From Candidatus Omnitrophota bacterium (GTDB lineage: Bacteria > Omnitrophota > Gorgyraeia > Gygaellales > Profunditerraquicolaceae), in the NCBI GenBank assembly GCA_026387435.1, contig JAPLLS010000093.1, positions 1,059 to 65,058 on the forward strand: a DNA stretch of 64,000 nucleotides, written 5' to 3'. A model generated the notes under the pieces. It did not search any database, was not told the origin of the DNA, and was given only the letters and a program-made list of their open reading frames with translations. Position 1 is the first letter of the stretch. Every line of letters begins with the position of its first letter. Below are positions 6,697 to 64,000 of this stretch, piece by piece. Both the position numbers and the translations under genes were made by a program.

Positions 6697-6755
6697 ATAT
6701 AAAAGTAATTTGTGTTAAAATTTATCTGGAAACCCAAGTTAAAAAGAGGAATAAA

Positions 6756-43375: not shown

Positions 43376-43551
43376 TTGTATCCATCCTTGGGGCGGGTAA
43401 GAAGAAACCGCTTTCAAATTCCGCCCTTGCCCGTCTTGAAAACTACTCTATATATTATATACTTATTATATAAGGTTGAGAGACTCTAGTGCCTTCCAGC
43501 TGGTTACTGGGAGGTCTCTTTTTCTCCACAAAACAAAAAGTTTGTAAAAGT

Positions 43552-50500: not shown

Positions 50501-53500
50501 GTCAGAGCAAGGTAGAGCTGATTGCTGACCGCGACGGCCTGATCGGACTTAATATCGCTTTGCACAAACTGATGCAGAAGTTCGTGAGCGATGAAGTCAC
50601 CCTCGAGAATCCCGAACGCCACCTGTTGACCATGCGCGACATGCGCGGATGGGTCAAGGCGTTCATGAGCGAGTTGGGCAAAGGCGTTTTGCTTGAGGAA
50701 GCGTTCATGACGCCGTTCGAGCTTTTTTACCTGAAGCAATTCAGCCCTGAGGCATATGCGCTGGCGAGGGAACAGGTTGATAGCCTGCTGCTGAATCAGG
50801 AGATCGCCAAGGTGTTCAACAAAAAAGCATTAAAAGAAAGTAATGGGCGGCCATTGAAATACGCGGCAGCCGAAACGATCAGGACAACCCCCTCAAAGAC
50901 AATCAAGTCGGGGTCGGCCGGAAATGTCAAAGCTCAGGCCAATGAACAAAGCCTTATCGCGCATGAATGGACGGGGGAACTAAAGGTAAGCAAAGAAGAT
51001 GCGGTTATGACTGATGAGCGCCTGAAATCTCTCCAGGAATTAGTGGCTAGTCTGAGTTTTCCCGAGTCTTCTGTGCATTTCCACTACGGGGATATGGCAA
51101 TCCTGAAGGGCGCCTCTGGAGAAGATGTGTTCGTGTACACAGAAGCAGGATCGATCATGATTTTAAGAAAGAATTCCGCGGGCAGATTTGAGCGGACTGA
51201 AATCAAGAATTCGTTGCAAGGATCCGGTCGCTCTTTTAACGCGTTTCTCAATGAAAGAGGTTTGCTTACTGTCGTAACCAAGGAGTTTGATAGTGACAAG
51301 ATCACCCTGACCAGGGAAATGGAGCCGGATGTTTTTAGATCCAAGACTATCCAGGTAAACGGCATCGATCATTTTGGCCTTAGCTTTAAGGCGATTCAGG
51401 ATCTTCAGGGCAAGTTGGTTTTTGCCGACACCAACGAGCAAAAGAGCGTGATTACTCTATGCCGGGAGAGGGACAATTTTATTCCTAAAGACCTGATGTT
51501 CTCAGGGCATGATCTTTGCCGCAGGATAGATCTCCTGGAAGACGCGCAAGGAAAGTTGACAATAGCCGTTTCCGGCGAAGATACGCTGGCGATCATGCAG
51601 GAGAAGAACCCGGATGAGTTTGAGGTCAGGGAGCTCCGGAAGTCAACCCTTTCCAACGGCCAAGTCCAGCTGATGCGAGATAAAGAAAGCAAACTGATCA
51701 TTGCTGCCGTCGGAATGTTAAGCGGTACAGGCCCCAAGGATCCCCTTCCGGAGAAGAAAGACGGGCTCACTATCTTGCGGGAAGAGGATGATCAGACTTT
51801 CTCGGAAAGCCGGTTGGAAGGGAAAATTTACGGCAGTTTTGACGCGATGACGGACGAAGAAGGGTTTTTGTCGATAGTTTCATATAATCCGGAAAGACAT
51901 AGCCAAGCGGGGAAGGAAGAGTTGTATAATTCTCCTGAGATTGCTCTCTTGAAAGAGGTCTCGCTTGATGAATTTACCCGGAAGATTATGAAAAGGCCGG
52001 AAGAAAAAACGGTGACCAATAAAGTCAATATATTCAGGGATCAAGATGGCAGCGTGTCATTTGTTTCCGGGCACGTTGGCTATATCAACATCTGGAAAGA
52101 CGATGAGGCGCAGTTTACGGCATTTGGCGCGGCCGACCCGGCCCGGGCTAAGCCGAAGAAGTTCGCCAGCTCCGAAGTAGTTAAGCATACAAGTGGCCCC
52201 ATTGCGACGAAGAACATCGGCGCCTTAGAGGTGAGCGATGTTAAAGATTATTCCGCCGGGGAGCTGAAAACAAAGACAGTCGAAGCGGTCAGCGCGGTCG
52301 GTAAAGTTGAAAATATGAGCTCGAGCGTCTTGCGAGAACTGAAGTTTGAGTTAAGGATCGAGGAGTATCCGAATTTTTCCGGAGATAAGATCAGGGTGGT
52401 CCGGGATGAACAAGGGCTTTTGACCATTGTCACCATTTCTTCCGCGGATATCGCGATCTGGCGGCAGAACGCCGAAGGCGGCTTCGAGGTCTCGATGGTA
52501 AAAGGCGCGCAGGACAATTGGGGCACGCAGATGAGAGTTGTTCCGGGCAGCGACGGGTTGCTTTACATTGTTACCGAAGCTGAAAAAGACGATGGGTTGA
52601 AAGTGTGGCAGGAGATCGAAAAAAATAAGTTCCGGATCACGATCTTGCCGCGCCCCGCTTCAGGCAGAGGATTCGACGCATTTTCTGACGACAAGGGAGG
52701 GCTGACTATTGTCAACAGCCATTCCAGGGCCCAAGATGAAGATTCGATCAAGAACGGGGATTCTACCTTTGATATCTGGGAAATCCATAAAGACGGCTCG
52801 TGTGCCCTGCGCCAGGGGGTGTTGCCTGCAGTTCCAACTCGAAAGAAGGTGTTTTTGCTGTGGGCGGGCAGGGATCCTTCAGGCCGCTTGCAGTTCATGT
52901 GTGACGATCCGGCAAACTCGAATGATATTCTTATTTGCACCGAGGTTCAGAAAGATCGTTTTAGTATCGAGTTATTGAGGGCGGGGAATGAGGATATTCT
53001 GCTTGCTAAGGGAGCGTTCCGGGATGGAGCGGGAAAACTAAATATTTTTGGCCGTATGTCAAAGCAGGGGCCGGTGTTATTCGACCAGACCGAGCAGGGG
53101 AAATTCGTCCAGACAGTATTAGATATGCCTCTGTTTGGGGCGAGTGTCGCGGTGACTAAAAACAGCTGGGGTTTGTATTCGCTGGGGGTGAATAGTAAGG
53201 AGTACGAATCCAGCATAGGTATCGAGTCCAAGGTGAGCCTGATTGCCCAGGGGCAAGACAAAGAATTCCGGGTCAAAAAATTCAGGTTAAGGGAAAATTT
53301 CGACGAAATTATTGCTTTCGTCGATGAAGAAGGATACAGCACGTTCGTGTCAAGCCATGAGGGAGTGATCAGGATCTGGAAAGACGATGAGGAACGGTTC
53401 AAGAAAGCGCCTGAGCCATTGCCGGATGAGCAGGAAGAATTCGTCGATAAGGGGTTGACCATCGGATCTGAGGAACAGGTTAAGGCTGATCTGTCCAGGG

Positions 53501-56500
53501 TCTTCGAATACGGAGCGCACGGTTTGCTGCTTTTGGAACCGGGTGCGCGGGAACATCAGATTATCAGGGAATTCGGAAAAGAAAACGGCTACCAGTTGCT
53601 TCATCTTGAAAGCGTTCCGGAAATGACCGATATGGAGATCATCGGAGGGCTCTTCCCGATACTGGAGGATGAGCCGCGGGATAACGGCAGGGAATTCCGC
53701 GTCAAGCCGGGATTCCTCAGCCGCCACCTGGTGCCCGAGGAACAGCGCAACGAGCCGGGCAAAAAGAAGCTGCTGATTTTGCATAATATCGACGCTCTTC
53801 CGGAGCGGGTCCGCGCGGCGCTGAATAATTTCCTGATCAAGGGTTACTTGGAGATCAAGGATGATTCGGGCAGGAGCAAAAGGTATTATCTGCCTTCCGG
53901 CACGGACATCGTCGCGACGATATCCTCAAAAAGCCAGCGGGAATTTTCATCCGCGTTCTTCAACAGGTTCGTCAAAATTTATGTGCCATCGATAAAAGTA
54001 TTCCACCGGGGTTTTTCCGAACTGCTCCAGTTATTGATGTTCCAGTGCGGTCTTTCGGAATACGAAGCGCGCCAGCTGCAGAAGATCTATATCATGGTCA
54101 AGGCTCTGGAAGAAGGCGGCCAGTTCTGGCCTTCGGGGACCGATTATAATTTCACGGCCAAGGACGCGCTGCTCTTAGGAGAATTCGTCAGGCTGGCCAG
54201 GCAGGAAGCAGGCGGACAACTGGGCCGGAAAGACATGGAACGGTTGATCGTTCAGGAAGCGCTGCGCGCCTACGGTGGCCGGCTCTGCGAGCATGAAGAG
54301 GATTATACTAATTTTGTCGATTTGATCCTTAAGAATATTTTCGATCACGAAGTGGTAGAGGAGCTTTCCGGTGAGGTTTTGATGGAAGAAGGCCGACTGC
54401 TCGCTCTTTCGGGAGTGAATCTTCCCGCGGGAAGCCGCGGCTTGGCCTGGGATAAGACCGATCCGCGCTACCGCTTGACCCTGGTGCCGACGATCACCCG
54501 GACGATGTCCGGGATCCTGCGCGGATGGCAGGCGGGCAGGATGGTCAGCATTGTCGGCGAGACCGGGGTGGCCAAGACCACGATGGGTGTTTTTCTTTCC
54601 CAATTGCTGTTCGGAGCGTCAAACGGCATGGAGCATTATTACATCTACTCGACCCACGGCGAATCCAAGGCCAGGGACATGACCGTTCAGCTGCGCATGA
54701 ACCGCGAAGGGGCATTCCGCTTGGAGATGCAGGAATTCCTCAAGCGGGTCAAAGCCGGCAACCAGGTGATAATAGTCGACGAAGCGAACATGCGCCCGGA
54801 AATGCTCTGGGTGCTCAACGGCATTGCCCGCGGTGAGAAAGAGGTAAGCGTGGAGATCCCCGGTGAAGAGCCGTTTACCGTCGAGATTGGCGACAATGTC
54901 TATATCCTTCTGACTATGAACCCGGAGAGTTACACTGACCGCGGAGAGGTCCCGGGAGTGCTTCTGGAGAATGTTTTCCGGCTCTGGGCACCGGCACGTT
55001 ACGCTCAAGATGAGGTCATCCGGATCCTGAATGATCTTATCGACGCCTCCCAGCAGGCGGCGGTTTCCAAACGGTTATCGTTAATACAGGCGCGGTCAAC
55101 GCTTTCCGGAGCGGCGGCGCTGGTGACCCTTGAGGATTTTATCAAGCGCGTCGATGAGATAGGCTTCGATAATGCGCTGGAAGAACGCACGATCAAAGAA
55201 TTGCGCAAGCTGGAGAGGGATATCCTGGCCATGGAAAGCGTGCGAAAGAAGATGAACAAGGTGCGCTCCGGTGTGGCGGTCGCCGTTCCTAAAACCCGGA
55301 TCATCTTCTCGATCCTGACCTGGTGGGGTTCGACCGACGACCGCACGACCATCATCGTTCCGCTGCACGAGCTGGCCAATTCCAAGCGCACTCCCGAGAC
55401 GATCATCGGGATCGTCCTGCATGAGGCGCGCCATCAGCTTTATTCGCTTTCTCACCCGGAAATGGAAAAAGTCGCGGAGCCCGAACATTTGCAGATCGTA
55501 AAAAAAGAAGAATTCCACAATTTCTGGAACGGCTTGGAGGATGTGCGCATAAATTATATCAACGATCCGGTAATGGCCGGGGAACGCGCTTATATCAAGG
55601 CCTCGCTTGATGAGATGTGTAAGGATCTGACCCAGGAGCAGATCTCCGAGATGGTAAAGAACTATGAGTTCGAGATGGACAATATCTTCTTATTTGAGCT
55701 GGTTTTTTACGGAAGGACAGGCCGCTACCGGAATTCATTCGCCTCCCTTCCTGAGCCGATGCAGCAGGCGCTTAGATCGGTCATCGAGAAAAACGGCGCG
55801 GAACAATCATTGCTTGATCAGGTTACGAACAACGAGCAGGTCCTGCCGGATATGGCCGGGATACAGCAGGGGAAAAAGGATTTTGCCCAGGAGCGTTTGC
55901 GCTCGGGAAAGGTTTCGCTGGGCGCGATGTGCGCGAAGATCTGGCCAATATACGAGAAACTATTGAAGCAGGCCGATGAAAACCGCGAGAAAGCCGGCAA
56001 GAAAAAAGAGGGCAAAGGCGGGCGCGGCAAGGGAGGGGGTAAAGGTAGTGGCGGGCAAAGAGACGGAATGCCGTCATTCGGAAGGATTAGTCGGGAAGAA
56101 TTGGAGGATCTGATCGAAAATACTCCTCTTGGCGCGCTGCCTGAATCGCTGAGGGGCGGCCGGTCCGGCGGCAGACCCGGGAGAGGTAATCCAGCCGGCC
56201 AGGATGATGCCGGGGGTGGCGAGGGATCGGAAGGGGACGGATCCGAGGGAGATAATAACGACGATAACCAGTCAGGGCGGCCGAATTTCATGAATGACGA
56301 AGACCGCGACAAGGACGCGGATAATGATCTGGATAGAAAGATCAATGAGGCCAAGAATAAGCGTACGGAAGAGATGAAGAAAAATGAACCGTTAAATTAC
56401 GCTTTAAGCAATATTCCGGCGGCCAGTAAGCGGCTTGCCGACGGACTGGTGCAGCTGTTCCGCGTCCCGGACGAGCCGGATATAGAGGAGTCTCCTTCAG

Positions 56501-58470
56501 GATGGAAGATAAATCCGGTGCGCTATCTTTTGCGCAACATGAATCCCTTCGACGAAGAAGAAGACCGGCCGGGTAAGCCTGATCTGGCGTTCGGGGTGAC
56601 CATAGATCTGAGCGGCAGCATGCAGGGGTATTTTAAAGCGATCAAGGACATGAACGCGCTGTTCATGGCTACGTTCCAGAAGATCGGCAGGAAAAAGATA
56701 GATTACAGCATGGGTTACGAGAACAGGGCTTTCGGGGTGGTCAAGGCATTCGACGAGAAGCTGGGGCAGTCAGAATTGAACCGCAAATACGGGGAGTTCG
56801 GCGCCATCATCGATGCCCGCGGAAGGCCGGAAGATATAGGGGGAGAGGGGATCCATCTCTATGTCGCGGTGTGCGGAGTGATCGATAAATACAAGGCCAC
56901 TAAAAAGAAGAATAAGATCGAGATTATCATTACCGATGGGCAGGATATGGGAGGAGACTTGAGTTACGACATGTCCGGTCGTCCGATACCTTCTTTCAGG
57001 CTGAAACGCAAGCTGGATGAAGCCCGGCACCTGGGGATCGAGATCGTGGGGGTTGGTTTTAATACCCGCGATACCGAGGTCTTCGGAAAGTGGGTGCAGC
57101 TGGACGCGAACCAGGCGGACGCGGTGGTGGAGGCGCTTCTAAAGATCGCGCGCAGAAAGGCGCTCAGCGGCAAGCTGCCTGACGGGAACCTGGTTTCGGC
57201 GCTGAATATCAACCTCAACAGGTCCTGGGATAAAAGTCGAGCCGACGGCGGCAGCGAAGAGGCGGGATTCCGGTACGGCCAGAACGATAATGTTCAAACG
57301 GAAGATTTCGGTATTTCCCGCACAGCGCTTTCAACCCAGCAGCTTGGGCAGATGGAGCGGGGGGACGCGGTCATTACCATCGGCAGCTCCAAAGAATGGC
57401 GGGAAGCGAATGAGTCATACGCAGGATTCGTATTCAAGAATGGGACATTAATGCGATCCTGGGCGGCCGGAAAACCGCCGGCGATAAGCGGTGTTGTGCT
57501 GGCGAAATCCCTTGTCCGTGCCCAATCAAGACAGGAAGACAAGTCAGGGGGGGCGGTCAGCAAATATAGTGATTTTCGTACCGATTTAGAATCGTACAAT
57601 CGGCGTTTTTCTCCTCTTCTGGGAACAAAGATAGAGGAATATGTGATCGCGCAGGTGCGAAAAACAAAACAGATAATGCGGATCCTTGATTGGGGCTGCG
57701 GCGAAGGAGTCGCTTTAGTTGAACTGCTCAAGCGCCTGCCTGAAGATGTGCGTCCTATGGTCAAACTGTACGGCTTTAGCAATATGTATTTCGACGACTG
57801 GAAATTCCCCGAAGCAGCTGGTATCGATTTTATCCTCGATGACGGCCAGAACATCGGCTCTTATTTCGGAGGGGAACTCCCGATCGACATGGTCATCAGC
57901 AATCTCGGCTTGTGCCATGTCGAAGATATCGCTTATCTGGAAAAGATCGGCGCGATCATGAAGGACGAGGGGATACTGTTGACCGATGCTGTTTATGATG
58001 AACAGACCTGGGAAGACTGGCAAAAGTCGGCAAGGCAATTGTTCGAAATCAACTTTGATAAAAGAGCGACAAGATTAATGGCAAAGAAGAAGTCAACTTC
58101 CCGACCAGTCGGTCAGGACGGTGGAACGGCGCAAACAGATGATTTGGGCGGTATCGATTTTCGCCAGATCCCAGTAGCTGGTGAATCAGCGGTGACTACA
58201 GCGCTTACTCCGCAGCTGCAGCAGCTGGCGCAGAATTCCAAGATGGCAGATTTGGACCAGGAATGGAGCTGCATCCGTGGAGAAATGCTCGCTCCCCAGA
58301 TGCCGTACGGGAAGATCAGGGAATACATCGCGGTCTGCCTGAGCAGGCCGGGCTGCCGGAAGAAACTGGACCAGGCAGTAACCTGCATCATCGATATTCT
58401 CAGGATGGAAGAAGATCAGGCTCTGGCTACTAACCAGGAGCTCAAAGATATATTGATGTATTTAAGCTAA
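43552..58470 (+). CDS. Giant (about 4,973 aa) secreted or anchored midasin-like protein. It has an N-terminal conserved module, five or more AAA+ (AAA_5/MoxR-dynein class) modules, a repeat-rich linker, an acidic low-complexity tract, a VWA/MIDAS domain and a C-terminal class I SAM methyltransferase-like domain.
   Basis: One uninterrupted ORF. The start is chosen at MINRILAFLISFCLIFEQTGFA (signal-like), in line with the downstream paralog. Walker A motifs: GPTGTGKT (~46785), GEPGGGKT (~49981) and GETGVAKT (~54557). Degenerate AAA_5 modules at ~45556-45710 and ~53521-54000 carry the family's ...HP.F.hhhT.NP-like signatures. MIDAS motif DLSGS at 56604-56618, with ITDGQD at ~56925. MTase motif I ILDWGCGEG at 57681-57707. 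Confidence 0.85.
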   Translation: MINRILAFLISFCLIFEQTGFAQLAIPIGIPGYLSLLAPVADKFRPIHLRSIDLSSGNGNFELILDKGDLKDIQPRQLEETTKELYRYFQIGLALPNKYFWVNLRPDSPDSMIEPLLAKTDLGKVMLEADLQLKKDLANFTSLQTPEGKLYWDKLYSKASELYNQQDIQIPTLTRPWIVPGEVVIRSSQTGAFVYKATLKVMLEQDYIKDSPAYNFNDPRLKELNGYSSQLIRELIIPKLTREVNSSRRYSQLRQVYYSLILAQWFKSKSFGVAMVEGRVAMAQKTDSQDLSGLTSKTSWSKDTYFQAYKKSFQKGEYNQQEQVNSLNGISIRQYTSGGIQIMDQLKIQEIPGSVADFFTGNQEYFARLSMNSLTGDVNILPASPVLKSGGAQEFDGGKKISQESEKAKDAKRGNDQAFSSVREKFMLLTEAEKEELNRRLRELHQDSLSQTSLNKEESDREFYTITIREQRRFIAVFLDKFCAEIDLEVALRKEEAAVRTLGYLFSKIAGLFAKYLSKKKEIGKNRLEAVKRREIFDRAWQEASRIYLDMFPQPEKRTWNAPANVPAIYAEAYDKLQSCLTTDIPALFLYSLESRDSLDRAFELYQRNNPQVIVERVICTPDSDRMQLIGADMPVSAQDREFSKEKIRFQKGVLYRLVDQAKADPSKIFVLRLEQVEALSAKVWVQLNQFLLTGELWIPETNEKLILPDNLKIVASLSSGLRDSAFYDRFLRKQLNIPDRKSLVDYAVTRFGLPQVLIEEYCNLQADNSDKITMGQLLVLFSYMKGRLADENISANSQRGRAIITEERDLFFRSMARGKENILLAMGKKEEEPGGGNDPDTEMLNEVLEFSTENRLQITADFTPEEIGEIVLKYPADWKNKLKELKLIKEEERDLFFLARRSNEGPLKGINPDDETAMMVLEYGGKIGEVYSRMGELRTYAGLHKIDLSLEEARVIAILAPDQIEGILKGREDVSEVLMLVEMRMAFQSVITIVPGVKNVLVFEPKTGRFMADGVELPIRSELKDKIAEAMKTRDMEQAIREVFKAELGLTLTQDVARTLSAISRNYRYGTRVLRLEGPTGTGKTFMAQALAKMLDIPFYGEPFHAASKQSKLLGALKPDEKADYYMDSDTPFLQILEKGGVVALSELNAAVKDDKARFGWLMVPLARGDEKFILNQYPDGKETTRELTRHPDSMVIIDINPTESYEARGQLPGPLNEVTPAVWVEGRFESQELEDISGDYLAGLAQEDLDYYRGKIAGLHFAIQQELADEDGPWRQEEKEKREKFGGVDITQMLKAGRMSPMKAMKVFGPMFGVKMEGHDEEMAIQKTLAIDAPHIISLRELKRACRMIAENNGKLSREQNLIEAVMFYYGFAFKEIGDQERVERFIRRILAPSAPKWEPPIAIEKFVASGHRVICLVLDPEGADMQELRKAMKNNEIDKLNIERINGWVPLEVAKQGKIVNAEKEYPRLRATIEQLFENDSESFEKSIGFLITLKKQNKPDQGVVVSNELDQKLQELKSAAEQWAGSGNKLVKPWEMLDMIEKEQQRKSGTTVEVMAKVLAGKPPSISKEFAKKLLELRSRPARTSGVAEEIEKELKETPPPFVSSGTNDIPLRTRSVREDIRDWGTNPDRPIVARPDMKSDEYGVMVMDVDGTLIGSRLSGVAEDIEKELIKLMRSAVEPATGVPVDWNQIMLKYLKEPEPPLAEFQDKGLQYYLDYSLFRTKEPTLLSMDAVNDPMAQLRSAAEKRGRVVIEKLNTNLFTDDFTLFGGYIPDSEREAETGEAQLRLADGAMSRFIAQAAKAREEDKNLPEAERRIFVLAFENYHYLRPQIAVALNVILQERVYYPPTSTDRIELPDNLRFFATATNEAEFNLSLAEQSRWARIFFHKPNGPAPQADNDLYSSADPGLAGMLPTVAGGAMPYDNDSISAKDLMRMARVDVEGMLVNKPSRPPSDSGSMTTAGGAMLDILTSASELAEKYLKDAGIKIKIEDNGKITLPELREMKYKRLGSLEEKLKGADDKEISSFAQDDLVPRFTADPKLEQLIEDYCREFPAVDKEEVRVAAEAVAKKKGPGEEPVTIKEVQYTSAEELRNAYKIEPFERQHEPLAEEELMVPTNELLRQESMMVNAMNRGQVIICEGEPGGGKTDMGIDIAERLGLDSYIYSGHAGAHLRDFIGAYTKDEKGRFVLTCLPDKDGHFKVPFLEFYTHGGVYTFDEGALGKYPQALISWLTGIARGEQELVINEHPGQEPLRLKRHKHFHIVITTNPVDETPGRESISVEVLKAARRIWVENKLSDASYQAILDRFYDFYSRQSKVELIADRDGLIGLNIALHKLMQKFVSDEVTLENPERHLLTMRDMRGWVKAFMSELGKGVLLEEAFMTPFELFYLKQFSPEAYALAREQVDSLLLNQEIAKVFNKKALKESNGRPLKYAAAETIRTTPSKTIKSGSAGNVKAQANEQSLIAHEWTGELKVSKEDAVMTDERLKSLQELVASLSFPESSVHFHYGDMAILKGASGEDVFVYTEAGSIMILRKNSAGRFERTEIKNSLQGSGRSFNAFLNERGLLTVVTKEFDSDKITLTREMEPDVFRSKTIQVNGIDHFGLSFKAIQDLQGKLVFADTNEQKSVITLCRERDNFIPKDLMFSGHDLCRRIDLLEDAQGKLTIAVSGEDTLAIMQEKNPDEFEVRELRKSTLSNGQVQLMRDKESKLIIAAVGMLSGTGPKDPLPEKKDGLTILREEDDQTFSESRLEGKIYGSFDAMTDEEGFLSIVSYNPERHSQAGKEELYNSPEIALLKEVSLDEFTRKIMKRPEEKTVTNKVNIFRDQDGSVSFVSGHVGYINIWKDDEAQFTAFGAADPARAKPKKFASSEVVKHTSGPIATKNIGALEVSDVKDYSAGELKTKTVEAVSAVGKVENMSSSVLRELKFELRIEEYPNFSGDKIRVVRDEQGLLTIVTISSADIAIWRQNAEGGFEVSMVKGAQDNWGTQMRVVPGSDGLLYIVTEAEKDDGLKVWQEIEKNKFRITILPRPASGRGFDAFSDDKGGLTIVNSHSRAQDEDSIKNGDSTFDIWEIHKDGSCALRQGVLPAVPTRKKVFLLWAGRDPSGRLQFMCDDPANSNDILICTEVQKDRFSIELLRAGNEDILLAKGAFRDGAGKLNIFGRMSKQGPVLFDQTEQGKFVQTVLDMPLFGASVAVTKNSWGLYSLGVNSKEYESSIGIESKVSLIAQGQDKEFRVKKFRLRENFDEIIAFVDEEGYSTFVSSHEGVIRIWKDDEERFKKAPEPLPDEQEEFVDKGLTIGSEEQVKADLSRVFEYGAHGLLLLEPGAREHQIIREFGKENGYQLLHLESVPEMTDMEIIGGLFPILEDEPRDNGREFRVKPGFLSRHLVPEEQRNEPGKKKLLILHNIDALPERVRAALNNFLIKGYLEIKDDSGRSKRYYLPSGTDIVATISSKSQREFSSAFFNRFVKIYVPSIKVFHRGFSELLQLLMFQCGLSEYEARQLQKIYIMVKALEEGGQFWPSGTDYNFTAKDALLLGEFVRLARQEAGGQLGRKDMERLIVQEALRAYGGRLCEHEEDYTNFVDLILKNIFDHEVVEELSGEVLMEEGRLLALSGVNLPAGSRGLAWDKTDPRYRLTLVPTITRTMSGILRGWQAGRMVSIVGETGVAKTTMGVFLSQLLFGASNGMEHYYIYSTHGESKARDMTVQLRMNREGAFRLEMQEFLKRVKAGNQVIIVDEANMRPEMLWVLNGIARGEKEVSVEIPGEEPFTVEIGDNVYILLTMNPESYTDRGEVPGVLLENVFRLWAPARYAQDEVIRILNDLIDASQQAAVSKRLSLIQARSTLSGAAALVTLEDFIKRVDEIGFDNALEERTIKELRKLERDILAMESVRKKMNKVRSGVAVAVPKTRIIFSILTWWGSTDDRTTIIVPLHELANSKRTPETIIGIVLHEARHQLYSLSHPEMEKVAEPEHLQIVKKEEFHNFWNGLEDVRINYINDPVMAGERAYIKASLDEMCKDLTQEQISEMVKNYEFEMDNIFLFELVFYGRTGRYRNSFASLPEPMQQALRSVIEKNGAEQSLLDQVTNNEQVLPDMAGIQQGKKDFAQERLRSGKVSLGAMCAKIWPIYEKLLKQADENREKAGKKKEGKGGRGKGGGKGSGGQRDGMPSFGRISREELEDLIENTPLGALPESLRGGRSGGRPGRGNPAGQDDAGGGEGSEGDGSEGDNNDDNQSGRPNFMNDEDRDKDADNDLDRKINEAKNKRTEEMKKNEPLNYALSNIPAASKRLADGLVQLFRVPDEPDIEESPSGWKINPVRYLLRNMNPFDEEEDRPGKPDLAFGVTIDLSGSMQGYFKAIKDMNALFMATFQKIGRKKIDYSMGYENRAFGVVKAFDEKLGQSELNRKYGEFGAIIDARGRPEDIGGEGIHLYVAVCGVIDKYKATKKKNKIEIIITDGQDMGGDLSYDMSGRPIPSFRLKRKLDEARHLGIEIVGVGFNTRDTEVFGKWVQLDANQADAVVEALLKIARRKALSGKLPDGNLVSALNINLNRSWDKSRADGGSEEAGFRYGQNDNVQTEDFGISRTALSTQQLGQMERGDAVITIGSSKEWREANESYAGFVFKNGTLMRSWAAGKPPAISGVVLAKSLVRAQSRQEDKSGGAVSKYSDFRTDLESYNRRFSPLLGTKIEEYVIAQVRKTKQIMRILDWGCGEGVALVELLKRLPEDVRPMVKLYGFSNMYFDDWKFPEAAGIDFILDDGQNIGSYFGGELPIDMVISNLGLCHVEDIAYLEKIGAIMKDEGILLTDAVYDEQTWEDWQKSARQLFEINFDKRATRLMAKKKSTSRPVGQDGGTAQTDDLGGIDFRQIPVAGESAVTTALTPQLQQLAQNSKMADLDQEWSCIRGEMLAPQMPYGKIREYIAVCLSRPGCRKKLDQAVTCIIDILRMEEDQALATNQELKDILMYLS

Positions 58471-58475
58471 AACTA

Positions 58476-59504
58476 TGATCAAACAGATAGTAGCATTCCT
58501 AATCTCATTTTGCTTAATTTTCGAACAGACCGGGTTTGCCAAGCTGGCTATTCCTATGGGCATACCTGGTTATTTAAGTTCGCTCGCTCCGGTTGCCGAT
58601 AAATTCCGGCCAATCCATCTGCGTTCCATTGATCTCAATCCCGGTAATGGTAATTTTGAACTTATCCTGGATAAAGGCGACCTGAATGATATCCAGCCCC
58701 GTCAGTTGGAAGAAACCACCCAACAGCTTTACCGGTATTTCCAGGTAGGATTAGTTTTGCCGAACAAGTATTTCTGGGTCAACCTCAGGCCGGATTCCCC
58801 GGATGAAGTTATCGAGCCTTTACTGGAAAAGACCGATGTCGGCCGGATCATGTTAGCTAGCGATCTGCAATTAAAGAAAGACCTGGCCAATTTCACTTCT
58901 CCCCAGACTCCGGAAGGCAAACTTTACTGGGACAGGCTTTACGCCAAAGCAGGTGAGCTTTACAACCAGCAAGATATTCAAATCCCCACCTTGACCAGGC
59001 CGTGGATAGTTCCCGGGGAAATCGTGATCCGTTCCAGCCCAACCGGGGCTTTTGTTTACAAGGCTACTTTAAAAGTAATGCTGGAGCAGGACTATATCAA
59101 AGATTCCCCGGCTTATAATTTCAGCGACCCAAGGCTAAAAGAGTTGAACAGTTATTCCTCCAAGCTTATCCGCGAACTGATCATTCCCAAGCTGACCCGG
59201 GAAGTCAACTCATCCAAAAGATACGCTCAGTTGCGCCAGGTGTATTATTCGTTGATCCTGGCCCAGTGGTTTAAGTCGAAATCTTTTGGAATGGCTATGA
59301 TCGAAGGTCGGGTGGCGATGGCACAAAAGACCGATAGCCAGGACTTGAGCGGGTTGACTTCCAAAACCAGCTGGTCAAAAGACACTTATTATCGGGATTA
59401 CCGTAAATCATTCCAGAAGGGGGAATACAATCGCCAGGAGCAGGTCAGTTCCGTCTCAGGCCTTTCCATCCGCCAGTATTTCAGCGGCGGGATCATGATG
59501 ATGG
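58476..59504 (+). repeat. About 1.03 kb direct repeat (copy 2): the shared 5' module of the two giant genes.
   Basis: See copy 1. Identity falls off after ...SGGI(Q/M)IMD. Confidence 0.85.
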
Positions 59505-62500
59505 ATAAGCCGGTTGGAGAGTGGACCGTGATCAGTAAAGACGGCGGATTTGCGGCTAACCAGCCATTTTTCGAGCGGTTGGCCATAGATTCCCGCGGGG
59601 ATGTTGCTAATTTACCGGCCAGCTCTACTTTAGCCGACGGCGGACAGAAAACCAATGTGCCCAGTGTAGAAACGGTTAAGGCCGCTTCCGGTTCCAACCC
59701 AAAAAAGGCTGTGCGTTTACGCGATATCCCTCAGAAAATCATAGATTACGAAGCTTATTTAGCTCCGCCGTTGGGCGTAGGGGCTGCGGTATTCGTGTAT
59801 TCTATCAGTCCGGTTTTACTGTTGTGGCTGATCCCCGTCGGAATTGCCGCCGTAGCTATAATCGGAGCGGAGCTTGCGTCATTAGAGTATCGTAATATAA
59901 AGAAAACCGATCCGGATCTGCTTTTGATCGTCCGGGGAAATCCGCTTAGCCTGATCAATGCCGTAGAATCGTTGGCATTGGGATTAGACGGGATCTTTGA
60001 TATGGGGGAAGTCTGGCGTTCCCCGAGTAAAGTTTTTGTCAACCTTACCCGGATTATGTACTCTTTGCCGACAGGGCTTATTTGGACCGCCATGGAATTG
60101 GCCATTGATTACTTTAATGGTTCGCGCACGGGTGAAAATATTCTTAAATCCAAGCTGGATATGATGCGCTTTGCGATCCGCCACTCAAGCGGGATCAATC
60201 CGCTAAAAGTCATGTACAAGTTATTTCCTAGGTGGTGTTTTGCCAAAGGCGATGTCGAACGCAGGTTCATGCTTTATGAGACAACGCTGTTGCATGTACG
60301 AAGCAGCGGCGACCTTGAGGCCGCCAAGGAAGACACTTTCCGAAACAATACTTTCTTTGCTTCTGAAGCGGCTTTTTACCACCTGCTCAAACAGTTAAAG
60401 TTGGAAGAGTTCGATGAGACCCTGGAGAAAATTAAACAAGGCGACAACATCCTTTATCGGGGGTCGCAGATCAAGAAAAAGAACATAAGTTCCGATGACC
60501 TGATCAATCTCTATCTGGCAGAGCGCAACAGTATCTGGCAAGTACGTCAGGATAGAGGTTTGACTGAACAGGACCAGGCGCTTATTGATTTTTTCGCCAA
60601 ACGCGGCTTATCCGCCACACCCGATTACCGGAATATGCCGTATTATGCGTTCGTTGTTTTAAAATTGCTTGACCGGCATTTCAAGGATTACTTCAGCGCA
60701 AATGAACTCCTGGGAACACCCAAGTGTAACGAGCTTCTGGAAATGGACCACTTGACGAATGAGGAAGTCATCAAGGATTTGATAGAAGCAAGGATCGTCA
60801 TCGAAAACGGCGATGAATATTTCCTCTCTGAAAACTTCAAACAAATCTTCCTGCGATTCCTCGATAAAAACTACAGCGAAATAACCGAAGCCGAGCTTTC
60901 CGGAGTGCCCGAACACGAAGGAGCGCTCCATGTCGACGGTAAATTATATCGCTGGGCTCAAAACGCGGCATCATCGCAGCGGGGCAAAGAGGCGTTAGAC
61001 GGCGGCACGAAATCAATAATGCAAGCGCAGGGGCAAAATAAAATAAAGGTGATTAACTATCCCCGCAGCGGAGTAATAGCGGAACCGAATGTTATCGGTT
61101 TGAAGAATATCGTTACCGGCAAAGATTTTGAACTCCGCAGGATCAGCTCGAAGAAGAACAGTTTTTCGGTATGGATGGATAATGTCAAACTAAAAAGCCT
61201 TTTCGAGTTTGATGAGGATGAAAAGGAGGTCGCCGTACATAATATGGCCGTTCCGAGCGAGTATACTTCGCAGGGAATAGGGCTTACCGTCCTGCGATAT
61301 TTGGCCCAGCGCGCCAGGACAGGAGGCAAGGATCTGGTTTTACATACCGTATTCAGTTATGCCGTGGCCCGGATGTGCTACGAACATATCAGTAAGAATG
61401 CGCGATACCGGGAAAAGGTGCGTCATATTGAAGATGAGTTCGCCAAAATGATCTCAGTGCGGTTATTGGATGACGGCAGGGTTTTGGCGGACTGGAAGTC
61501 GGCTGCGGGAAAATCACCTCTTACCTACCAGGTTTTTTTATCAAAAGGCGTTTTGGATATTTCTATCAGGAACGAAGATATTATGACGACAGGGGAGGAA
61601 TCCGATGGCGGAAAGGAGTTAGAGGTCGCAGAGGCAGGGTTGAACCGGGATGATATGGAGAAATGGGTTTCTGATGCTTTGGAGAGGCCTGAACTCGCAG
61701 CGGGCATAAAGTCGGATGTCGGCGATGTGCTGGAGATGTCCGAGCAAGAGCTGGGGGGATGGTACGATTATTTCAGGGCGCGCGCGCTCAAGCAGTTGCG
61801 CGAATCGAAATCAGTCAGGATGCTGGAGAACAAAAAAGGTTTCAAGCTCTGGTTCCGGCTGAATGACTTTGACTTGGGTGGGTTGTTGTATCTTCTGGAT
61901 GAATTTAAAGATCATTCTTTGTCGCCGGAAGTTTCTTCGGCGCGAACAAAGCCCGGGATCTTAGAATCGCGCTGGCTGCGGTATACGATGCTGTTTTTGT
62001 TTGGGGCAACGCTATTTTCGAGTTTAGTCCCTCTTGTTTCCGGCTTAGACGCGCAGCTACTTGAAAATCACAGCGGTACAAACAACACCTTTGACCAGCC
62101 GGTTACCGTTTCTACTGAGGTTTTGTTCGACGAAATCCTCTCCCAGGATCGATCCCAGCTTGTGGTCGTGAACCCCTACCTGGAACAATATGTCAATAAG
62201 CTGCTGGACTGGGATAGTAAGGATTTAAAGAACAAAGCTTCTAAACTCACTGTTATCAGCACCCGCGACTTAAGAACTTCCGGGGAATTTAATAATCTTT
62301 TACAAAGCGAAAAGAAGCAAGGCAACGCGGACAGGGTAATTTTTGTCGGGAAATACGATAAATATCAGATAACACAATATCTTTCGCAGGATCAAAAGCT
62401 GGCGGTTGGCGATAGCGGGCGCATAAATAAACTAATCTCATTGCGCGACCAGCTTAATAATCTGACCGCCGGTATGGACCCGAACGCTTTCTATGAATAC

Positions 62501-64000
62501 GTCAGTTATCGAAATAAACTCAATAGATGGCCTACCGAGAAAGCGATCAGCATCCAAGGCGGGACTCCCCAGGAGCAGATCGATCGGACAGAGCGAGATT
62601 TGGCGCAAACCCAGGCGTGGGTTGATCAAAACAAGGAGCAATTCCAGGAAACCTACGATCGGTTTTTAGAGTATGATAATTTGCTGTACGATGAGACATC
62701 CGAAGGCAACGTCCCGGCTTACCTGGAAGAAAATAATCTGACGGTCCAATCGCTGTTCCCGGATATTTTTAATCAAGCCCAACGGGGCAAGCACGCCTCT
62801 CATGTCGAGAAATTCATTTTAGACCATCAAATCAACGGCCAGATACCCGGCAATATGGTCTCTGAGATAGTGGAGCCATTACCGGACTTATTTCTGTCCG
62901 GACACAACAAAACTTACGGCCAGGATCAGAACCGGCCGTTATTGCTTGTGGTCGAAGGCGACGCGATACAATCTTTGAGTCAATACCTGAGTGATTACCA
63001 ATTTTACGGCGCAAGAGAAGGCCGCGTTATCGAAGTGTTTAATCCCACCGGACGGGATCTGGGAGAAAGCGTTTCTTACGTCGAATATAAAGGTGAGTTA
63101 GGTTATCAGATAGGGTTTTTAGGGAATAATTCCGGGATGGCTAAAAATAATTACCGGCCTGATGACCTGAAAACGCTGGAGGAGCTGGAAAAACTAAAGG
63201 AAAAAGTGAACGGGCTCGCGCAAAATTATGATGGCGATCCCGCCGCTGATTACGACAAGTATAGGCGCCTCTCGGATGAAAGTTACGAAATCAGCCTTCA
63301 TATGCTGGCTATTGAGACTTCGGAGGACGCTTATGAAAGACGCCAGGAATGGGAGGATTACAACAGGCAGCATGATGAACTTCAGCCTGAGCTGGATAAG
63401 ATAAGCGGAAAACTGGGCCAACCGCTTCTCTGGGCAACGTACAAATTCAAAGAGAAGCTCTACGAGGAAGAGCGAACAGGAGCAATCTACAGGCTTATTC
63501 AGGCGGGGAACGATCCTCAAAGCTGGTTCCCTGTGACTTTTAGCAAGGATTCATCCTTCCAGTATGGCAGTTCTCTCTTTCCGGACGCGATATACTCATT
63601 GAAAACCTACGAAAAGGTGGGTGGGGCTTATCATGAGCATGATGCGGATAAGATAAAGGATATTGAGAAAGCCAAAGCCCTAAAGATACTGCTGGAAGCA
63701 TCGCTAAGCGACTACAAGAAAAACCACCCCAACTCAACTTTCGAGAAAGATTGTGAAGAACTTAAGTCGAGGATAACCAAATCTGATACTGACGTTTACA
63801 TGGAAATATTATTCAGCGGAGACCCCCGGGCTAAAGATATCTGCAGGATCCTGGACATTGAGGGCGCCCTCGGGCAAAGCGGATTTTACGGTGTCTATCA
63901 GGGGGAAGACGGCAAGATTTACTCGAGCGAAGAATCTTATCATGCCTACAGGGATTACACTGCTTTCAGGGATTATGTCGAGGCGAAATGGGGATCCGAA
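58476..64000 (+). CDS. Second giant gene, open at the 3' end of the window with at least 1,841 codons. It shares the N-terminal ~343-aa module with the upstream giant protein and then diverges into a transmembrane-containing region and further uncharacterised domains.
   Basis: ATG 58476 lies 5 nt after the upstream stop. The translation MIKQIVAFLISFCLIFEQTGFAKLAIPMGIPGYLSSLAPVADKFRPIHLRSIDL... parallels the upstream N-terminus. The frame was checked by eye and no stop was seen through 64000. The ORF track omitted it because no stop falls in the window. Confidence 0.7.

What the first reader, a model, noticed from the sequence alone, without database searches (positions are those of the whole stretch)
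55420..58100. Unusual C-terminal effector modules on the giant protein: HEARH motif, MIDAS domain and a fused methyltransferase
Downstream of the last AAA module there is an HExxH-like motif (IVLHEARHQL, 55420-55434) with a downstream NGLEDVR. This could be a zincin-like site, or it could be coincidental. Next comes the Gly/Lys-rich then Asp/Glu-rich low-complexity tract, then a clear MIDAS (DLSGSMQG at 56604-56618, ITDGQDMGGD). A class I SAM-MTase-like domain follows, with motif I ILDWGCGEGVALVEL (57681) and a post-motif VISNLGLCHV. A MIDAS domain directly tethered to a methyltransferase suggests substrate capture coupled to covalent modification. I do not know of this combination in MoxR/VWA systems.
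Basis: partly seen in the sequence, partly recalled or inferred. Interest (0 to 1): 0.5.

Follow-up and report, generated by a model that had tools for sequence, protein, structure and literature searches.

The report
CobT-like tail plus inserted methyltransferase
The C-terminal end of this 5,000-residue Omnitrophota protein is a known kind of adaptor for AAA+ motors (a peptidase-like HExxH domain, a floppy acidic linker and a VWA/MIDAS domain, as in the cobalt chelatase subunit CobT), and the methyltransferase after it looks like a separately inserted cassette, not a conserved partner of the MIDAS site.

Summary
HEARH is the only HExxH in 4,993 residues and is invariant in 17 homologs. The confident model of its domain (pLDDT 95) resembles M48-type zinc peptidases and, more strongly, the N-domain of phage CobT-like VWA proteins. 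An archaeal-virus CobT N-domain carries the same HExxH and N-x-L-E-D-x-x-I-D/N motif pair.

HExxH domain, Gly/Lys then Asp/Glu linker and VWA therefore form a CobT-type adaptor. Here it is fused in cis to six MoxR/CobS-type AAA modules, three of them with intact P-loops, which gives a midasin-like layout. The VWA is real, but only 4 of the 5 MIDAS positions are kept.

The methyltransferase is a real class I SAM enzyme fold. It fills a variable slot between the VWA and a C-terminal helical domain shared by more than 100 Omnitrophota proteins. It is flanked by "DGG" boundary motifs. It is absent from every other listed or fetched VWA-bearing homolog.

Coupled capture and methylation is therefore not supported by conservation, though it is not excluded. 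Verdict: a new variant of a known kind.

The parts
43552..58470 (+). Giant gene: 4,972 aa from ATG 43552, or 4,993 aa from GTG 43489. Order: N-terminal family domain, six AAA-type modules, CobT-like tail, methyltransferase cassette, C-terminal family domain.
   Evidence: A single open frame. The ATG start is supported by the paralog and by P0004. Named homologs are Candidatus Omnitrophota MAG proteins.
54457..55263 (+). Last Walker-A-intact AAA_5 module (aa 3657-3925, GETGVAKT at aa 3690). It immediately precedes the HExxH domain.
   Evidence: Pfam AAA_5. Internal repeat analysis shows two alternating classes of three modules each.
55186..55989 (+). HExxH domain (aa 3900-4167): CobT_N-like, M48-like zincin fold. 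HEARH is at 55420-55434. NGLEDVR is at 55528-55548 and carries the candidate third ligand E4017/D4018.
55990..56265 (+). Low-complexity linker (aa 4168-4259): Gly/Lys/Arg-rich, then Asp/Glu/Asn/Gly-rich. It holds a conserved short motif, MPSFGRISREELEDLIENTPLGALPESL, at 56068-56151.
   Evidence: Composition. The motif is conserved in homologs. It is equivalent to the ~90-residue disordered CobT linker.
56266..56490 (+). Conserved pre-VWA segment (aa 4260-4334). Inferred to be the counterpart of the CobT_C N-terminal extension, the "shaft".
   Evidence: The second half of the "LC" query segment aligns to all close homologs at E = 1e-7 to 1e-18. The link to the shaft is by analogy only.
56491..57234 (+). 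VWA domain (aa 4335-4582). MIDAS residues: D4373, S4375, S4377 (56605-56619) and T4482-D4483 (56932-56937). The fourth MIDAS position is I4455/H4456 (56851-56856).
   Evidence: Alignment A2 has invariant D, S and TD. The profile matches solved VWA structures at E = 3e-19 and CobT at 3e-4. Pfam VWA is hit by 21 of 23 members and CobT_C by 2.
57244..57252 (+). DGG boundary motif no. 2 (aa 4586-4588). It marks the end of the AAA-CobT unit and the start of the inserted cassette.
   Evidence: There are only three DGG in the protein, all at module boundaries. The motif is enriched 8-fold in the family.
57253..57558 (+). Orphan connector (aa 4589-4690) between the VWA and the methyltransferase.
   Evidence: No homolog matches it among the 150 best hits. 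The modelled part of it, aa 4610-4687, has pLDDT below 50 for almost its whole length.
57559..58083 (+). Class I SAM-dependent methyltransferase domain (aa 4691-4865). Motif I, ILDWGCGEG, begins at 57682. Motif IV-like VISNLGLCHV is at 57892-57921.
   Evidence: Pfam Methyltransf_23 E = 1e-5. The family profile matches solved methyltransferases at E = 8e-10. The model core has pLDDT 88-98, and all top 50 Foldseek PDB hits are class I methyltransferases at probability 0.97-1.00. The family alignment shows conserved motifs.
58117..58125 (+). DGG boundary motif no. 3 (aa 4877-4879), 7 residues before GGIDF.
58147..58467 (+). GGIDF motif plus the C-terminal family domain (aa 4887-4993), predicted as a five-helix bundle.
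   Evidence: Found at the extreme C-terminus of more than 100 proteins of 195-5,600 aa, at up to 76% identity. Model pLDDT 74-96 with five helices. No Pfam hit.
43552..44736 (+). N-terminal family domain (aa 22-416). It starts with a signal-peptide-like segment, MINRILAFLISFCLIFEQTGFAQ, and ends at DGG no. 1 (44737-44745).
   Evidence: 81% identical to the N-terminus of the next ORF. Shared by 40+ CTD-bearing proteins. No Pfam hit.
58475..64000 (+). Tandem paralog, at least 1,841 aa, running off the window. Same N-terminal domain, different cargo. It starts 4 nt after the giant gene's stop codon.
   Evidence: Weak GNAT hit.

Best explanation
The last ~1,100 residues hold three units of different origin.

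**1. [quoted passage not shown] It is fused in cis to six MoxR/CobS-type AAA modules, of which three keep a P-loop.

By analogy with the solved CobS-CobT motor, I infer the following.
- The AAA modules form one ring.
- The HExxH domain docks on a lid domain of that ring.
- The segment ahead of the VWA enters the ring channel.
- ATP-driven movement is passed through the VWA to a client held at the MIDAS face.

This would be a self-contained, midasin-like remodelling machine. The invariant HExxH argues that the domain still binds a metal. Whether it cleaves anything is unknown.

**2. A methyltransferase cassette, aa 4586-4877.** It is delimited by DGG motifs and holds an orphan connector plus a class I SAM methyltransferase. 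It sits in a variable slot between the VWA and the C-terminal domain. It most likely acts as an independent enzyme that travels with the machine, not as a step coupled to MIDAS capture.

**3. The C-terminal domain.** GGIDF followed by a five-helix domain. Together with the N-terminal signal-like domain, it marks a large Omnitrophota family of multi-module proteins with shuffled enzyme cargo.

**Shown:** the domain identities, the conservation, the modular distribution and the DGG boundaries.

**Inferred:** ring formation, docking, client remodelling, metal binding and independent action of the methyltransferase.
For: **The adaptor is one conserved unit.**
- HExxH domain, linker and VWA align as a single stretch after the last AAA module in giant AAA_5 proteins P0001-P0012, P0023, P0032, P0033, P0039 and P0042.
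- The HExxH is invariant.
- Model 1 has pLDDT 95 and a 3-stranded sheet followed by helices.

**Link to CobT.**
- The best viral fold matches are CobT / VWFA / metallopeptidase-domain proteins at probability 1.0.
- The published CobT architecture is an N-domain resembling peptidase M48C, a ~90-residue disordered linker, a VWA with an N-terminal extension and a shaft that inserts into the CobS ring, and a MIDAS of D, S, S, N, D.
- The HHTV-2 split CobT has HEVQH, NVLEDNHIDY and an acidic tail, followed by a separate VWA gene and an AAA gene. hhalign places these motifs on ours at E = 0.0027.
- The VWA profile hits CobT VWA in the PDB, and Pfam CobT_C in 2 members.

**AAA modules.** There are six, in two alternating classes.

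**The methyltransferase is real but mobile.**
- Its identity rests.
- The same family occurs in P0030, P0041, P0089, P0094, P0138, P0150, P0122 and P0064, and as small stand-alone proteins.
- No VWA-to-methyltransferase combination appears in the top 150 hits or in L002/L003.
- P0004, P0007 and P0095 go from VWA straight to the C-terminal domain. P0034 and P0046 carry other inserts in that slot.
- DGG sits at aa 417, 4586 and 4877 only. In 41 family proteins it occurs 256 times against 32 expected.
Against: - No sequence HMM (Pfam CobT, Peptidase_M48, DUF2201_N, NCBIfam, PHROGs) recognises the HExxH domain.
- I could not inspect model coordinates, so convergence of H3978, H3982 and E4017 on one site is not verified.
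- Ring formation and docking rest entirely on analogy.
- The fourth MIDAS residue is missing.
- The N-terminus looks like a Sec signal peptide. That is hard to reconcile with enzymes that need ATP and SAM unless the protein stays anchored facing the cytoplasm or acts inside another cell.
- Absence of the VWA-methyltransferase pairing elsewhere does not prove that the two do not cooperate here.
- Only the best 150 of 595 hits could be inspected.
Confidence: 0.6

Rival explanations
1. The MIDAS site captures a substrate protein, and the tethered methyltransferase then modifies it: capture coupled to covalent modification within one polypeptide.
For: Both domains are intact and lie about 110 residues apart in the same chain. 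A flexible tether would allow the methyltransferase to reach a client held on the VWA. The nearest solved relatives include peptide N-terminal methyltransferases BamL and CypM.
Against: - The combination is unique to this sequence among 150 relatives and the fetched loci.
- The closest homologs lack the methyltransferase.
- The methyltransferase family is spread over unrelated architectures.
- The connector is an orphan and is modelled as disordered.
- The cassette is bounded by the family's module-boundary motif.
- The MIDAS lacks its fourth residue.
Confidence: 0.15
2. The protein is a polyprotein. DGG motifs are processing sites, so the AAA-CobT machine, the methyltransferase and the terminal domains are separated after synthesis or export. 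The invariant HExxH domain could be the processing peptidase.
For: - DGG is 8-fold enriched and sits at domain boundaries, with K/R at position -1 in 45% of sites and a median spacing of 190 aa.
- The HExxH is invariant in a zincin-like fold.
- Peptidase domains that might cut giant Omnitrophota proteins have been proposed before.
Against: - There is no direct evidence of cleavage.
- Most DGG-bearing family members have no HExxH domain, so it cannot be the general processing enzyme.
- DGG may simply be a flexible-linker signature.
- CobT_N, the closest known relative, acts as a docking domain, not a protease.
Confidence: 0.15
3. The VWA-methyltransferase junction, or the methyltransferase-CTD junction, is an assembly artefact. 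Paralogs that share near-identical terminal domains could have been joined wrongly.
For: - The family has highly conserved terminal domains, and two paralogs lie in tandem.
- The only independent assembly found for this genome is fragmented, with a 4.2 kb contig that ends 315 nt into the gene.
- The fusion is seen nowhere else.
Against: - The frame is open for 15 kb with no shift.
- The VWA-to-connector junction lies in unique sequence, not in a repeat.
- The methyltransferase is followed by a normal DGG-GGIDF-CTD arrangement, as in other methyltransferase-to-CTD proteins P0089, P0122 and P0138.
Confidence: 0.05

Closest known systems
CobT, the adaptor subunit of the aerobic cobaltochelatase CobNST, and the CobT-like VWA proteins of phages and archaeal viruses (cobS-cobT gene pairs)
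   Same: - The same three-part order: an N-domain with a 3-stranded sheet plus helices resembling peptidase M48, then a disordered acidic linker, then a VWA with an N-terminal extension and a MIDAS whose fourth residue is not Thr.
- It works with a MoxR/CobS-type AAA_5 ATPase.
- Viral members share the HExxH and N-x-L-E-D-x-x-I-D/N motifs.
   Different: - Here the adaptor is fused to the ATPase modules in one 5,000-residue chain.
- There is no Pfam CobT hit.
- No cobN or B12 genes are in the window.
- The protein has a signal-like N-terminus, an extra methyltransferase and family-specific terminal domains.
Midasin (Rea1/Mdn1) of eukaryotes
   Same: - About 5,000 residues.
- Six AAA modules of the dynein/MoxR (AAA_5) type in one chain.
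- An acidic low-complexity stretch followed by a VWA/MIDAS domain near the C-terminus.
- A weak Pfam AAA_lid_7 (midasin lid) hit.
   Different: - No sequence match to solved midasin.
- Three of the six modules have lost the P-loop.
- There is a 330-residue M48-like domain instead of the ~1,700-residue linker.
- A large repeat-rich insert sits between modules.
- The MIDAS is not terminal.
- The host is bacterial, and the N-terminus looks like a signal peptide.
Two-gene MoxR-VWA chaperone pairs (RavA-ViaA, NorQ-NorD, CbbQ-CbbO) and BchD/ChlD
   Same: An AAA_5-type ATPase cooperates with a VWA/MIDAS partner that engages the client. BchD/ChlD also join an AAA-like domain, an acidic linker and a VWA in one chain (from established knowledge).
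   Different: These are hexamers of single-module subunits. None is known to carry an HExxH M48-like domain plus a methyltransferase.
M48 zinc metallopeptidases (BepA, HtpX, Ste24) and minigluzincins
   Same: HExxH on a helix after a small sheet, with a Glu/Asp on a later helix. They are the best PDB fold matches.
Class I SAM methyltransferases of the Methyltransf_11/23/25 type (phosphoethanolamine N-methyltransferase, BamL, CypM, CysG)
   Same: Rossmann-like core and motif I (DWGCGEG). Profile E = 8e-10 and Foldseek probability 0.97-1.00.
   Different: It belongs to a separate family, found here in Omnitrophota-type proteins and in small unnamed proteins, with a conserved W..T.L N-terminal extension. 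The substrate is unknown.
Giant multi-enzyme "Archaeovorin"-type proteins of Omnitrophota
   Same: The same phylum. Long chains carry methyltransferases and other enzymes, and AAA_5 is among their frequent domains.
   Different: Those exceed 30,000 aa and have many transmembrane helices. The sections of that paper I read do not describe the N-domain ... DGG ... GGIDF-CTD family or the AAA-CobT fusion.

Membership tests
CobT-type adaptor (works-like comparison) | N-terminal domain: a 3-stranded sheet preceded by helix/helices and followed by about 8 helices, resembling peptidase M48 | tested here: met
CobT-type adaptor (works-like comparison) | Disordered acidic linker of about 90 residues between the N-domain and the VWA | tested here: met
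   aa 4168-4259 is Gly/Lys then Asp/Glu/Asn-rich. The same is seen in homologs and in HHTV-2. Disorder itself was not modelled.
CobT-type adaptor (works-like comparison) | C-terminal VWA with an N-terminal extension and a MIDAS of D-x-S-x-S ... N ... D | tested here: inconclusive
   VWA and DxSxS/TD are met. CobT VWA is hit at E = 3e-4 and CobT_C in 2 of 23 members. A conserved pre-VWA segment is present. The fourth MIDAS position is Ile/His. The fold of the extension was not modelled.
CobT-type adaptor (works-like comparison) | Partner MoxR/CobS-type AAA+ ATPase | tested here: met
   AAA_5 modules lie in the same chain.
CobT proper (cobaltochelatase subunit) | Match to the Pfam CobT N-domain model, and genomic or functional association with CobN and B12 synthesis | tested here: not met
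   No CobT HMM hit at E up to 10 in 17 members. No cobN or cob genes among the window's ORFs that were scanned. It is therefore not filed as CobT.
Zincin metallopeptidase (gluzincin, M48-like) | HExxH on the active-site helix | tested here: met
   Invariant H3978, E3979 and H3982 on helix 70-86 of the model.
Zincin metallopeptidase (gluzincin, M48-like) | Third metal ligand (Glu) on a following helix, converging on the two His | tested here: inconclusive
   E4017 (15 of 17) and D4018 (14 of 17) lie on helix 108-123.
Zincin metallopeptidase (gluzincin, M48-like) | Recognised by a peptidase family HMM; peptidase activity | tested here: not met
   No Peptidase_M48 or other peptidase hit. WLM reaches only E = 0.09 in 2 members, and Wss1 E = 0.7. 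Activity cannot be tested here.
DUF2201_N + DUF2201 (putative metallopeptidase + VWA-like partners of MoxR; recalled from memory as a lead) | Pfam PF13203 / PF09967 match | tested here: not met
   No such hit. There are only lower-ranked fold matches to phage "Metallopeptidase domain containing" and "VWA-like domain-containing" proteins.
VWA domain with MIDAS | VWA fold or family profile match | tested here: met
   Profile against the PDB at E = 3e-19. Pfam VWA is hit by 21 of 23 members, best 1e-12. The query alone scores 19 bits, below the 23.8 cut-off.
VWA domain with MIDAS | Five MIDAS residues: D-x-S-x-S, T, D | tested here: inconclusive
   D4373, S4375, S4377 and D4483 are present and conserved. 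The Thr position is I4455/H4456 in the query and in most close homologs, but Thr in others.
Class I SAM-dependent methyltransferase | Rossmann-like core with the glycine-rich motif I, and family or fold match | tested here: met
   The DWGCGEG motif. Pfam Methyltransf_23 at E = 1e-5, 25.7 bits against a 27-bit cut-off. Profile against the PDB at 8e-10. All top 50 Foldseek hits are class I methyltransferases.
Class I SAM-dependent methyltransferase | SAM binding and methyl transfer | not testable with these tools
   The residue after strand 2 is Asn in the query (GFSN) and Asp in several homologs (GFGD). Strands 6 and 7 are modelled with low confidence.
Midasin (Rea1/Mdn1) | Six AAA modules in one chain, a long linker, a D/E-rich region, a terminal MIDAS, and sequence relatedness to midasin | tested here: not met
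   Six modules and an acidic stretch followed by a VWA are present. There is no match to solved midasin, no long linker, and the MIDAS is not terminal. The layout is similar, but this is not a member.

The most novel reading that the evidence does not exclude
The gene encodes an exported or cell-surface "beads-on-a-string" effector of a host-dependent Omnitrophota bacterium. A self-contained, midasin-like AAA-CobT mechanoenzyme and a SAM methyltransferase would be delivered together, and perhaps released by cleavage at DGG sites, possibly by the zincin-like domain. They would then act inside a prey or host cell using its ATP and SAM. That would make this a prokaryotic, secreted counterpart of a midasin-type machine.
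Probability: 0.1. Interest if true: 0.8.

Novelty: new variant of a known kind. Interest (0 to 1): 0.5.

Why it matters
The result turns an apparently odd set of "effector" motifs into a recognisable machine. The HExxH-linker-VWA tail is the CobT-type adaptor that MoxR/CobS motors use to grip clients, here fused to its six-module motor in one bacterial polypeptide.

Such single-chain versions, which occur as several paralogs in Omnitrophota MAGs, resemble midasin in layout. They could inform how midasin-type proteins arose, and what MoxR-VWA machines do outside metal-chelatase pathways.

The work also shows that the invariant HExxH is shared with viral CobT-like proteins that are often annotated as peptidases. 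That gives a concrete, testable question: is this a metal site, and is there catalysis?

Finally, it exposes an Omnitrophota protein family I found no description of in the papers searched and read. The family has a common N-domain, DGG-delimited cargo modules and a GGIDF-helical C-domain. That context explains the methyltransferase fusion as cassette shuffling.

Tried and rejected
**Searches that found nothing**
- The word-indexed protein search failed three times. It gave 0 hits for aa 3900-4993 and for alignment A1, probably swamped by low-complexity or common words, and only 2 hits for the C-terminal domain. The exhaustive HMMER search supplied all the homologs.
- A scan of species-representative genomes with aa 4338-4993 found nothing.
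- A metagenome scan with the VWA-methyltransferase junction found nothing. The scan with A4 gave four loci, of which the two close relatives (L002, L003) lack the methyltransferase and the other two are only weak partial VWA matches.
- An exact look-up of the giant protein found no record.
- tblastn of aa 3900-4600 against phage genomes found no match.
- For the HExxH domain, Pfam, NCBIfam, PADLOC and PHROGs gave nothing significant. A PDB sequence search with the profile found only Wss1p, on the HExxH helix, at E = 0.7.
- The HHTV-2 CobT N-domain found nothing in the PDB.
- The AlphaFold-database fold library was not available.

**Readings considered and rejected**
- Membership in midasin: no match to solved midasin.
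- Membership in DUF2201_N: no HMM hit.
- Bona fide cobaltochelatase: no CobT HMM hit, and no cobN among the scanned ORFs of the window.
- An anti-phage defence role, suggested by the PADLOC mad2 hit at E = 4e-5 on the methyltransferase: it is only generic methyltransferase similarity.

**Technical dead ends**
- Mixed alignments of methyltransferase-only and CTD-only fragments were misplaced by MAFFT, and X-padding did not help.
- This was solved by limiting the CTD rows to 24.


Full report
**1. Observation**

The window carries one open frame from 43489 to 58470 on the + strand, 4,993 codons from a GTG.
- HEARH: aa 3978-3982 (55420-55434).
- NGLEDVR: 55528-55548.
- DLSGSMQG: 56605-56628.
- ITDGQDMGGD: 56929-56958.
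- ILDWGCGEGVALVEL: 57682-57726.
- VISNLGLCHV: 57892-57921.

The true start is probably the ATG at 43552. The next ORF and the database homolog P0004 both begin at the equivalent Met, followed by the same hydrophobic segment. Neighbouring genes are ordinary bacterial housekeeping genes: LeuRS, RlmN, Dus, EF-G, PurH, MnmE and an AcrB/TolC-type efflux pump. The named relatives of the giant protein are all from Candidatus Omnitrophota MAGs.

**2. Homologs**

The word-indexed protein search returned nothing. An exhaustive HMMER search of aa 3850-4993 against 1.84 billion representative proteins gave 595 hits. I mapped the best 150 domain by domain. They fall into three unrelated groups, and this grouping is the key result.

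- **Group i.** The HExxH domain, the low-complexity tract and the VWA align as one block. The block always follows the last AAA module, in proteins of 3,000-6,200 aa rich in AAA_5 (P0001-P0012, P0023, P0032, P0033, P0039, P0042; 27-44% identity).
- **Group ii.** The last ~115 residues are found at the extreme C-terminus of more than 100 proteins of any length (195-5,600 aa, up to 76% identity). Most of the longer ones also share the giant's first ~345-390 residues.
- **Group iii.** The methyltransferase matches modules inside other such proteins (P0030, P0041, P0089, P0094, P0138, P0150, P0122, P0064), and also small stand-alone proteins.

No listed protein has a VWA followed by this methyltransferase.

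**3. The HExxH domain**

*Chance and conservation.* HExxH occurs once in the protein against 0.05 expected. In an alignment of 17 homologs at 21-36% identity, H3978, E3979 and H3982 are invariant. R3981 and R4020 are nearly invariant. The E4017-D4018 pair is mostly kept.

*Sequence models.* None recognises the domain: Pfam, NCBIfam, PADLOC, PHROGs and a PDB profile search all gave nothing significant.

*Model.* An AlphaFold2 model built on the 17-sequence alignment is confident (pLDDT 95.1, pTM 0.89). It shows two helices, a three-stranded sheet, a helix carrying HExxH, then further helices, one of which carries E4017/D4018/R4020.

*Fold matches.*
- Foldseek against predicted viral structures is clearer. 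The best matches, at probability 1.0, are a phage "Cobalt chelatase, CobT subunit" (E = 1.7e-4, 277 aligned columns, TM 0.53) and several 570-730-residue "VWFA domain containing" and "Cobalamin biosynthesis" proteins. "Metallopeptidase domain containing" and "VWA-like domain-containing" proteins also appear.

**4. Link to CobT**

A 2026 preprint on the cobalt chelatase motor describes CobT in three parts:
- a ~90-residue disordered linker;
- a C-terminal VWA with an N-terminal extension. A "shaft" from it inserts into the channel of the CobS AAA+ ring, and its MIDAS is D422, S424, S426, N518, D546.

In that work the N-domain docks on the small domain of CobS.

This is the same order of parts as aa 3900-4582 here. 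As a direct check I fetched the archaeal virus HHTV-2, whose CobT is split into two genes. Gene 2, which was hit 4, reads ...LSHEVQHHND...INVLEDNHIDYNR..., followed by an acidic, glycine-rich tail. Gene 3 is the VWA and gene 10 is the AAA ATPase. hhalign places its HExxH and N-x-L-E-D-x-x-I-D on the window's HEARH and NGLEDVRIN (E = 0.0027 for the single comparison, but probability only 11%).

Another paper notes that such proteins are often annotated as peptidases.

It is not CobT proper. There is no Pfam CobT match, and no cobN or B12 genes among the scanned ORFs of the window.

**5. Linker and VWA**

The tract aa 4168-4259 is Gly/Lys/Arg-rich and then Asp/Glu/Asn/Gly-rich. It contains a short conserved motif, MPSFGRISREELEDLIENTPLGALPESL. 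The following aa 4260-4334 is not low-complexity filler, because it aligns to all close homologs. I infer, without testing, that it corresponds to the CobT extension or shaft.

The VWA is secure. A 23-sequence profile matches solved VWA domains at E = 3e-19 to 2e-9 and CobT VWA at 3e-4. Of the 23 members, 21 hit Pfam VWA (best 1e-12) and two hit CobT_C.

D4373, S4375, S4377 and T4482-D4483 are conserved. The fourth MIDAS position, however, is I4455/H4456 in the query and in most close homologs, while others have Thr. "Clear MIDAS" is therefore slightly too strong.

**6. The motor**

Iterated searches within the family show six AAA-type modules in two alternating classes:
- degenerate modules without a P-loop lysine, at aa 592-779, 1743-1911 and 3330-3503;
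- AAA_5 modules with an intact Walker A, at aa 1047-1293, 2114-2414 and 3657-3925.

Read directly, the degenerate class keeps the AAA_5-like "LLILHNID ... IVAT ... NRF" pattern. This is my inspection of the sequence, not an HMM result. Six modules in one chain, then an acidic stretch and a VWA, recalls midasin. A search against solved structures finds no midasin, though, so the resemblance is one of layout only.

**7. The methyltransferase**

The query alone scores just under the Pfam cut-offs (Methyltransf_23, 25.7 bits against 27, E = 1e-5). The wider evidence is consistent:
- The family alignment conserves motif I ((V/I)LDWGCG.G), a GF(S/G)(N/D) turn after strand 2, FI.DD, and D.(V/I).S..GL.H.
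- The profile matches phosphoethanolamine N-methyltransferase at E = 8e-10 and BamL at 8e-8.
- The model core (aa 4694-4834) has pLDDT 88-98.
- All 50 best Foldseek PDB matches are class I SAM methyltransferases, with probabilities of 0.97-1.00.

The substrate class cannot be read from these matches, which span small-molecule, peptide and RNA enzymes.

**8. Is the methyltransferase coupled to the MIDAS?**

The comparative evidence says it is an insertion.
- P0004 is the closest full-length relative and has the same N-domain, AAA modules, HExxH, linker, VWA and C-domain. It goes from the VWA (ending at 4120) to the C-domain (starting at 4150) with nothing between them.
- The fragments P0007 and P0095 do the same.
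- P0034 and P0046 carry other, unidentified inserts of about 220 and 535 residues in that slot.
- Two metagenome loci with close relatives end about 80 residues after the VWA.
- The 102 residues between the VWA and the methyltransferase (aa 4589-4690) match nothing, and the modelled part (aa 4610-4687) has low confidence.
- The tripeptide DGG occurs exactly three times in the giant protein: at aa 417 (end of the N-domain), aa 4586 (just after the VWA) and aa 4877 (ten residues before GGIDF and the C-domain).
- In 41 database proteins that carry both terminal domains, DGG occurs 256 times against 32 expected. It usually sits at the end of the N-domain and at the start of the C-domain. Median spacing is 190 residues, and K/R precedes it in 45% of sites.

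The methyltransferase is thus one DGG-delimited cassette in a family built from such cassettes. Other members carry methyltransferases, GNAT and metallophosphoesterase domains. This does not exclude cooperation within this particular protein, but it removes the argument from architecture.

**9. Terminal domains and context**

The C-domain is predicted as a five-helix bundle (pLDDT 74-96) preceded by a near-invariant GGIDF(R).(L/I)P. It has no Pfam match. The N-domain begins with a signal-peptide-like segment and also has no Pfam match.

The next gene starts 4 nt after the stop codon. It shares the first 390 residues at 81% identity and then diverges. Other giant AAA-VWA homologs also begin with signal-like segments.

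How an exported or anchored protein would obtain ATP and SAM is unexplained. Published work proposes that Omnitrophota are host-dependent and that their giant proteins act at the cell surface or on prey. This leaves room for an effector reading that I cannot test.

**10. Verdict**

- The HExxH-linker-VWA block is a CobT-type adaptor, fused to its motor.
- The HExxH is conserved and probably binds a metal, but catalysis is unproven.
- The methyltransferase is real but is best explained as a shuffled cassette.

The single-chain motor-adaptor fusion and the DGG/GGIDF family are, as far as the papers I searched and read show, undescribed. I rate the finding a new variant of a known kind, of moderate interest.

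The main caveats are these:
- The PDB fold scores are weak.
- I had no access to model coordinates.
- Only the top 150 of 595 hits were inspected.
- A single sequence supports the fusion.

Noticed in passing
window 44737-44745, 57244-57252, 58117-58125; proteins P0016-P0142: The tripeptide DGG marks module boundaries. It occurs three times in the giant protein, all at domain borders. In 41 proteins that share the terminal domains it is 8-fold over-represented (256 against 32 expected), with a median spacing of 190 aa and K/R at position -1 in 45% of sites. It could be a linker signature or a processing site.
   Followed up: partly
window 43552-44736 and 58475-59644: A shared N-terminal domain of about 390 aa begins with a signal-peptide-like segment. 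It is 81% identical between the two tandem genes and is present in 40+ database proteins. It has no Pfam match and its fold is unknown.
   Followed up: partly
window 58147-58467: A GGIDF motif plus a predicted five-helix C-terminal domain ends more than 100 proteins of 195-5,600 aa. GGID(F/L/M) also precedes a different short C-terminal tail (PVIINI-type) in P0001, P0002, P0006 and in L002/L003. This may be a sorting or docking element.
   Followed up: partly
window 45262-55263 (aa 592-3925): Six AAA-type modules alternate between a degenerate class without a P-loop and an AAA_5 class with an intact Walker A. This suggests a triplicated two-module unit forming a single-chain ring.
   Followed up: partly
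window about 50926-53418 (aa 2480-3310): A large repeat-rich insert lies between the fourth and fifth AAA modules. It has recurring "...G.L.IV(T/S)..." units, and JGI names homolog P0002 "WD40 repeat protein/MoxR-like ATPase". It may be a beta-propeller. Not analysed.
   Followed up: no
window 56068-56151 (aa 4194-4221): A conserved short motif, (M/V)P.F..(I/L)(S/T).EE...(L/I)(I/L)... P..ALPE, is embedded in the otherwise low-complexity linker and is kept in most close homologs. Its function is unknown.
   Followed up: no
window 58475-64000 (ORF2, aa 910-970): The tandem paralog has a weak GNAT acetyltransferase hit (E = 0.0025) and DGG at aa 356, 388, 842 and 1044. Its cargo differs completely from that of the giant gene.
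   Followed up: no
window 2634-5477: A 947-aa ORF combines a Peptidase_M1 domain (E = 9e-23) with a C-terminal Omp85 beta-barrel domain (E = 9e-18). This is an unusual fusion of a zinc aminopeptidase-type domain with an outer-membrane barrel.
   Followed up: no
locus L006 (HHTV-2, KC292024) 416-2989 and 5983-7365: The split viral CobT keeps an intact HExxH (HEVQH) and NVLEDNHIDY in its N-domain gene. The same motif pair is invariant in the Omnitrophota family, which raises the question of whether viral CobT-like proteins bind a metal at this site.
   Followed up: partly
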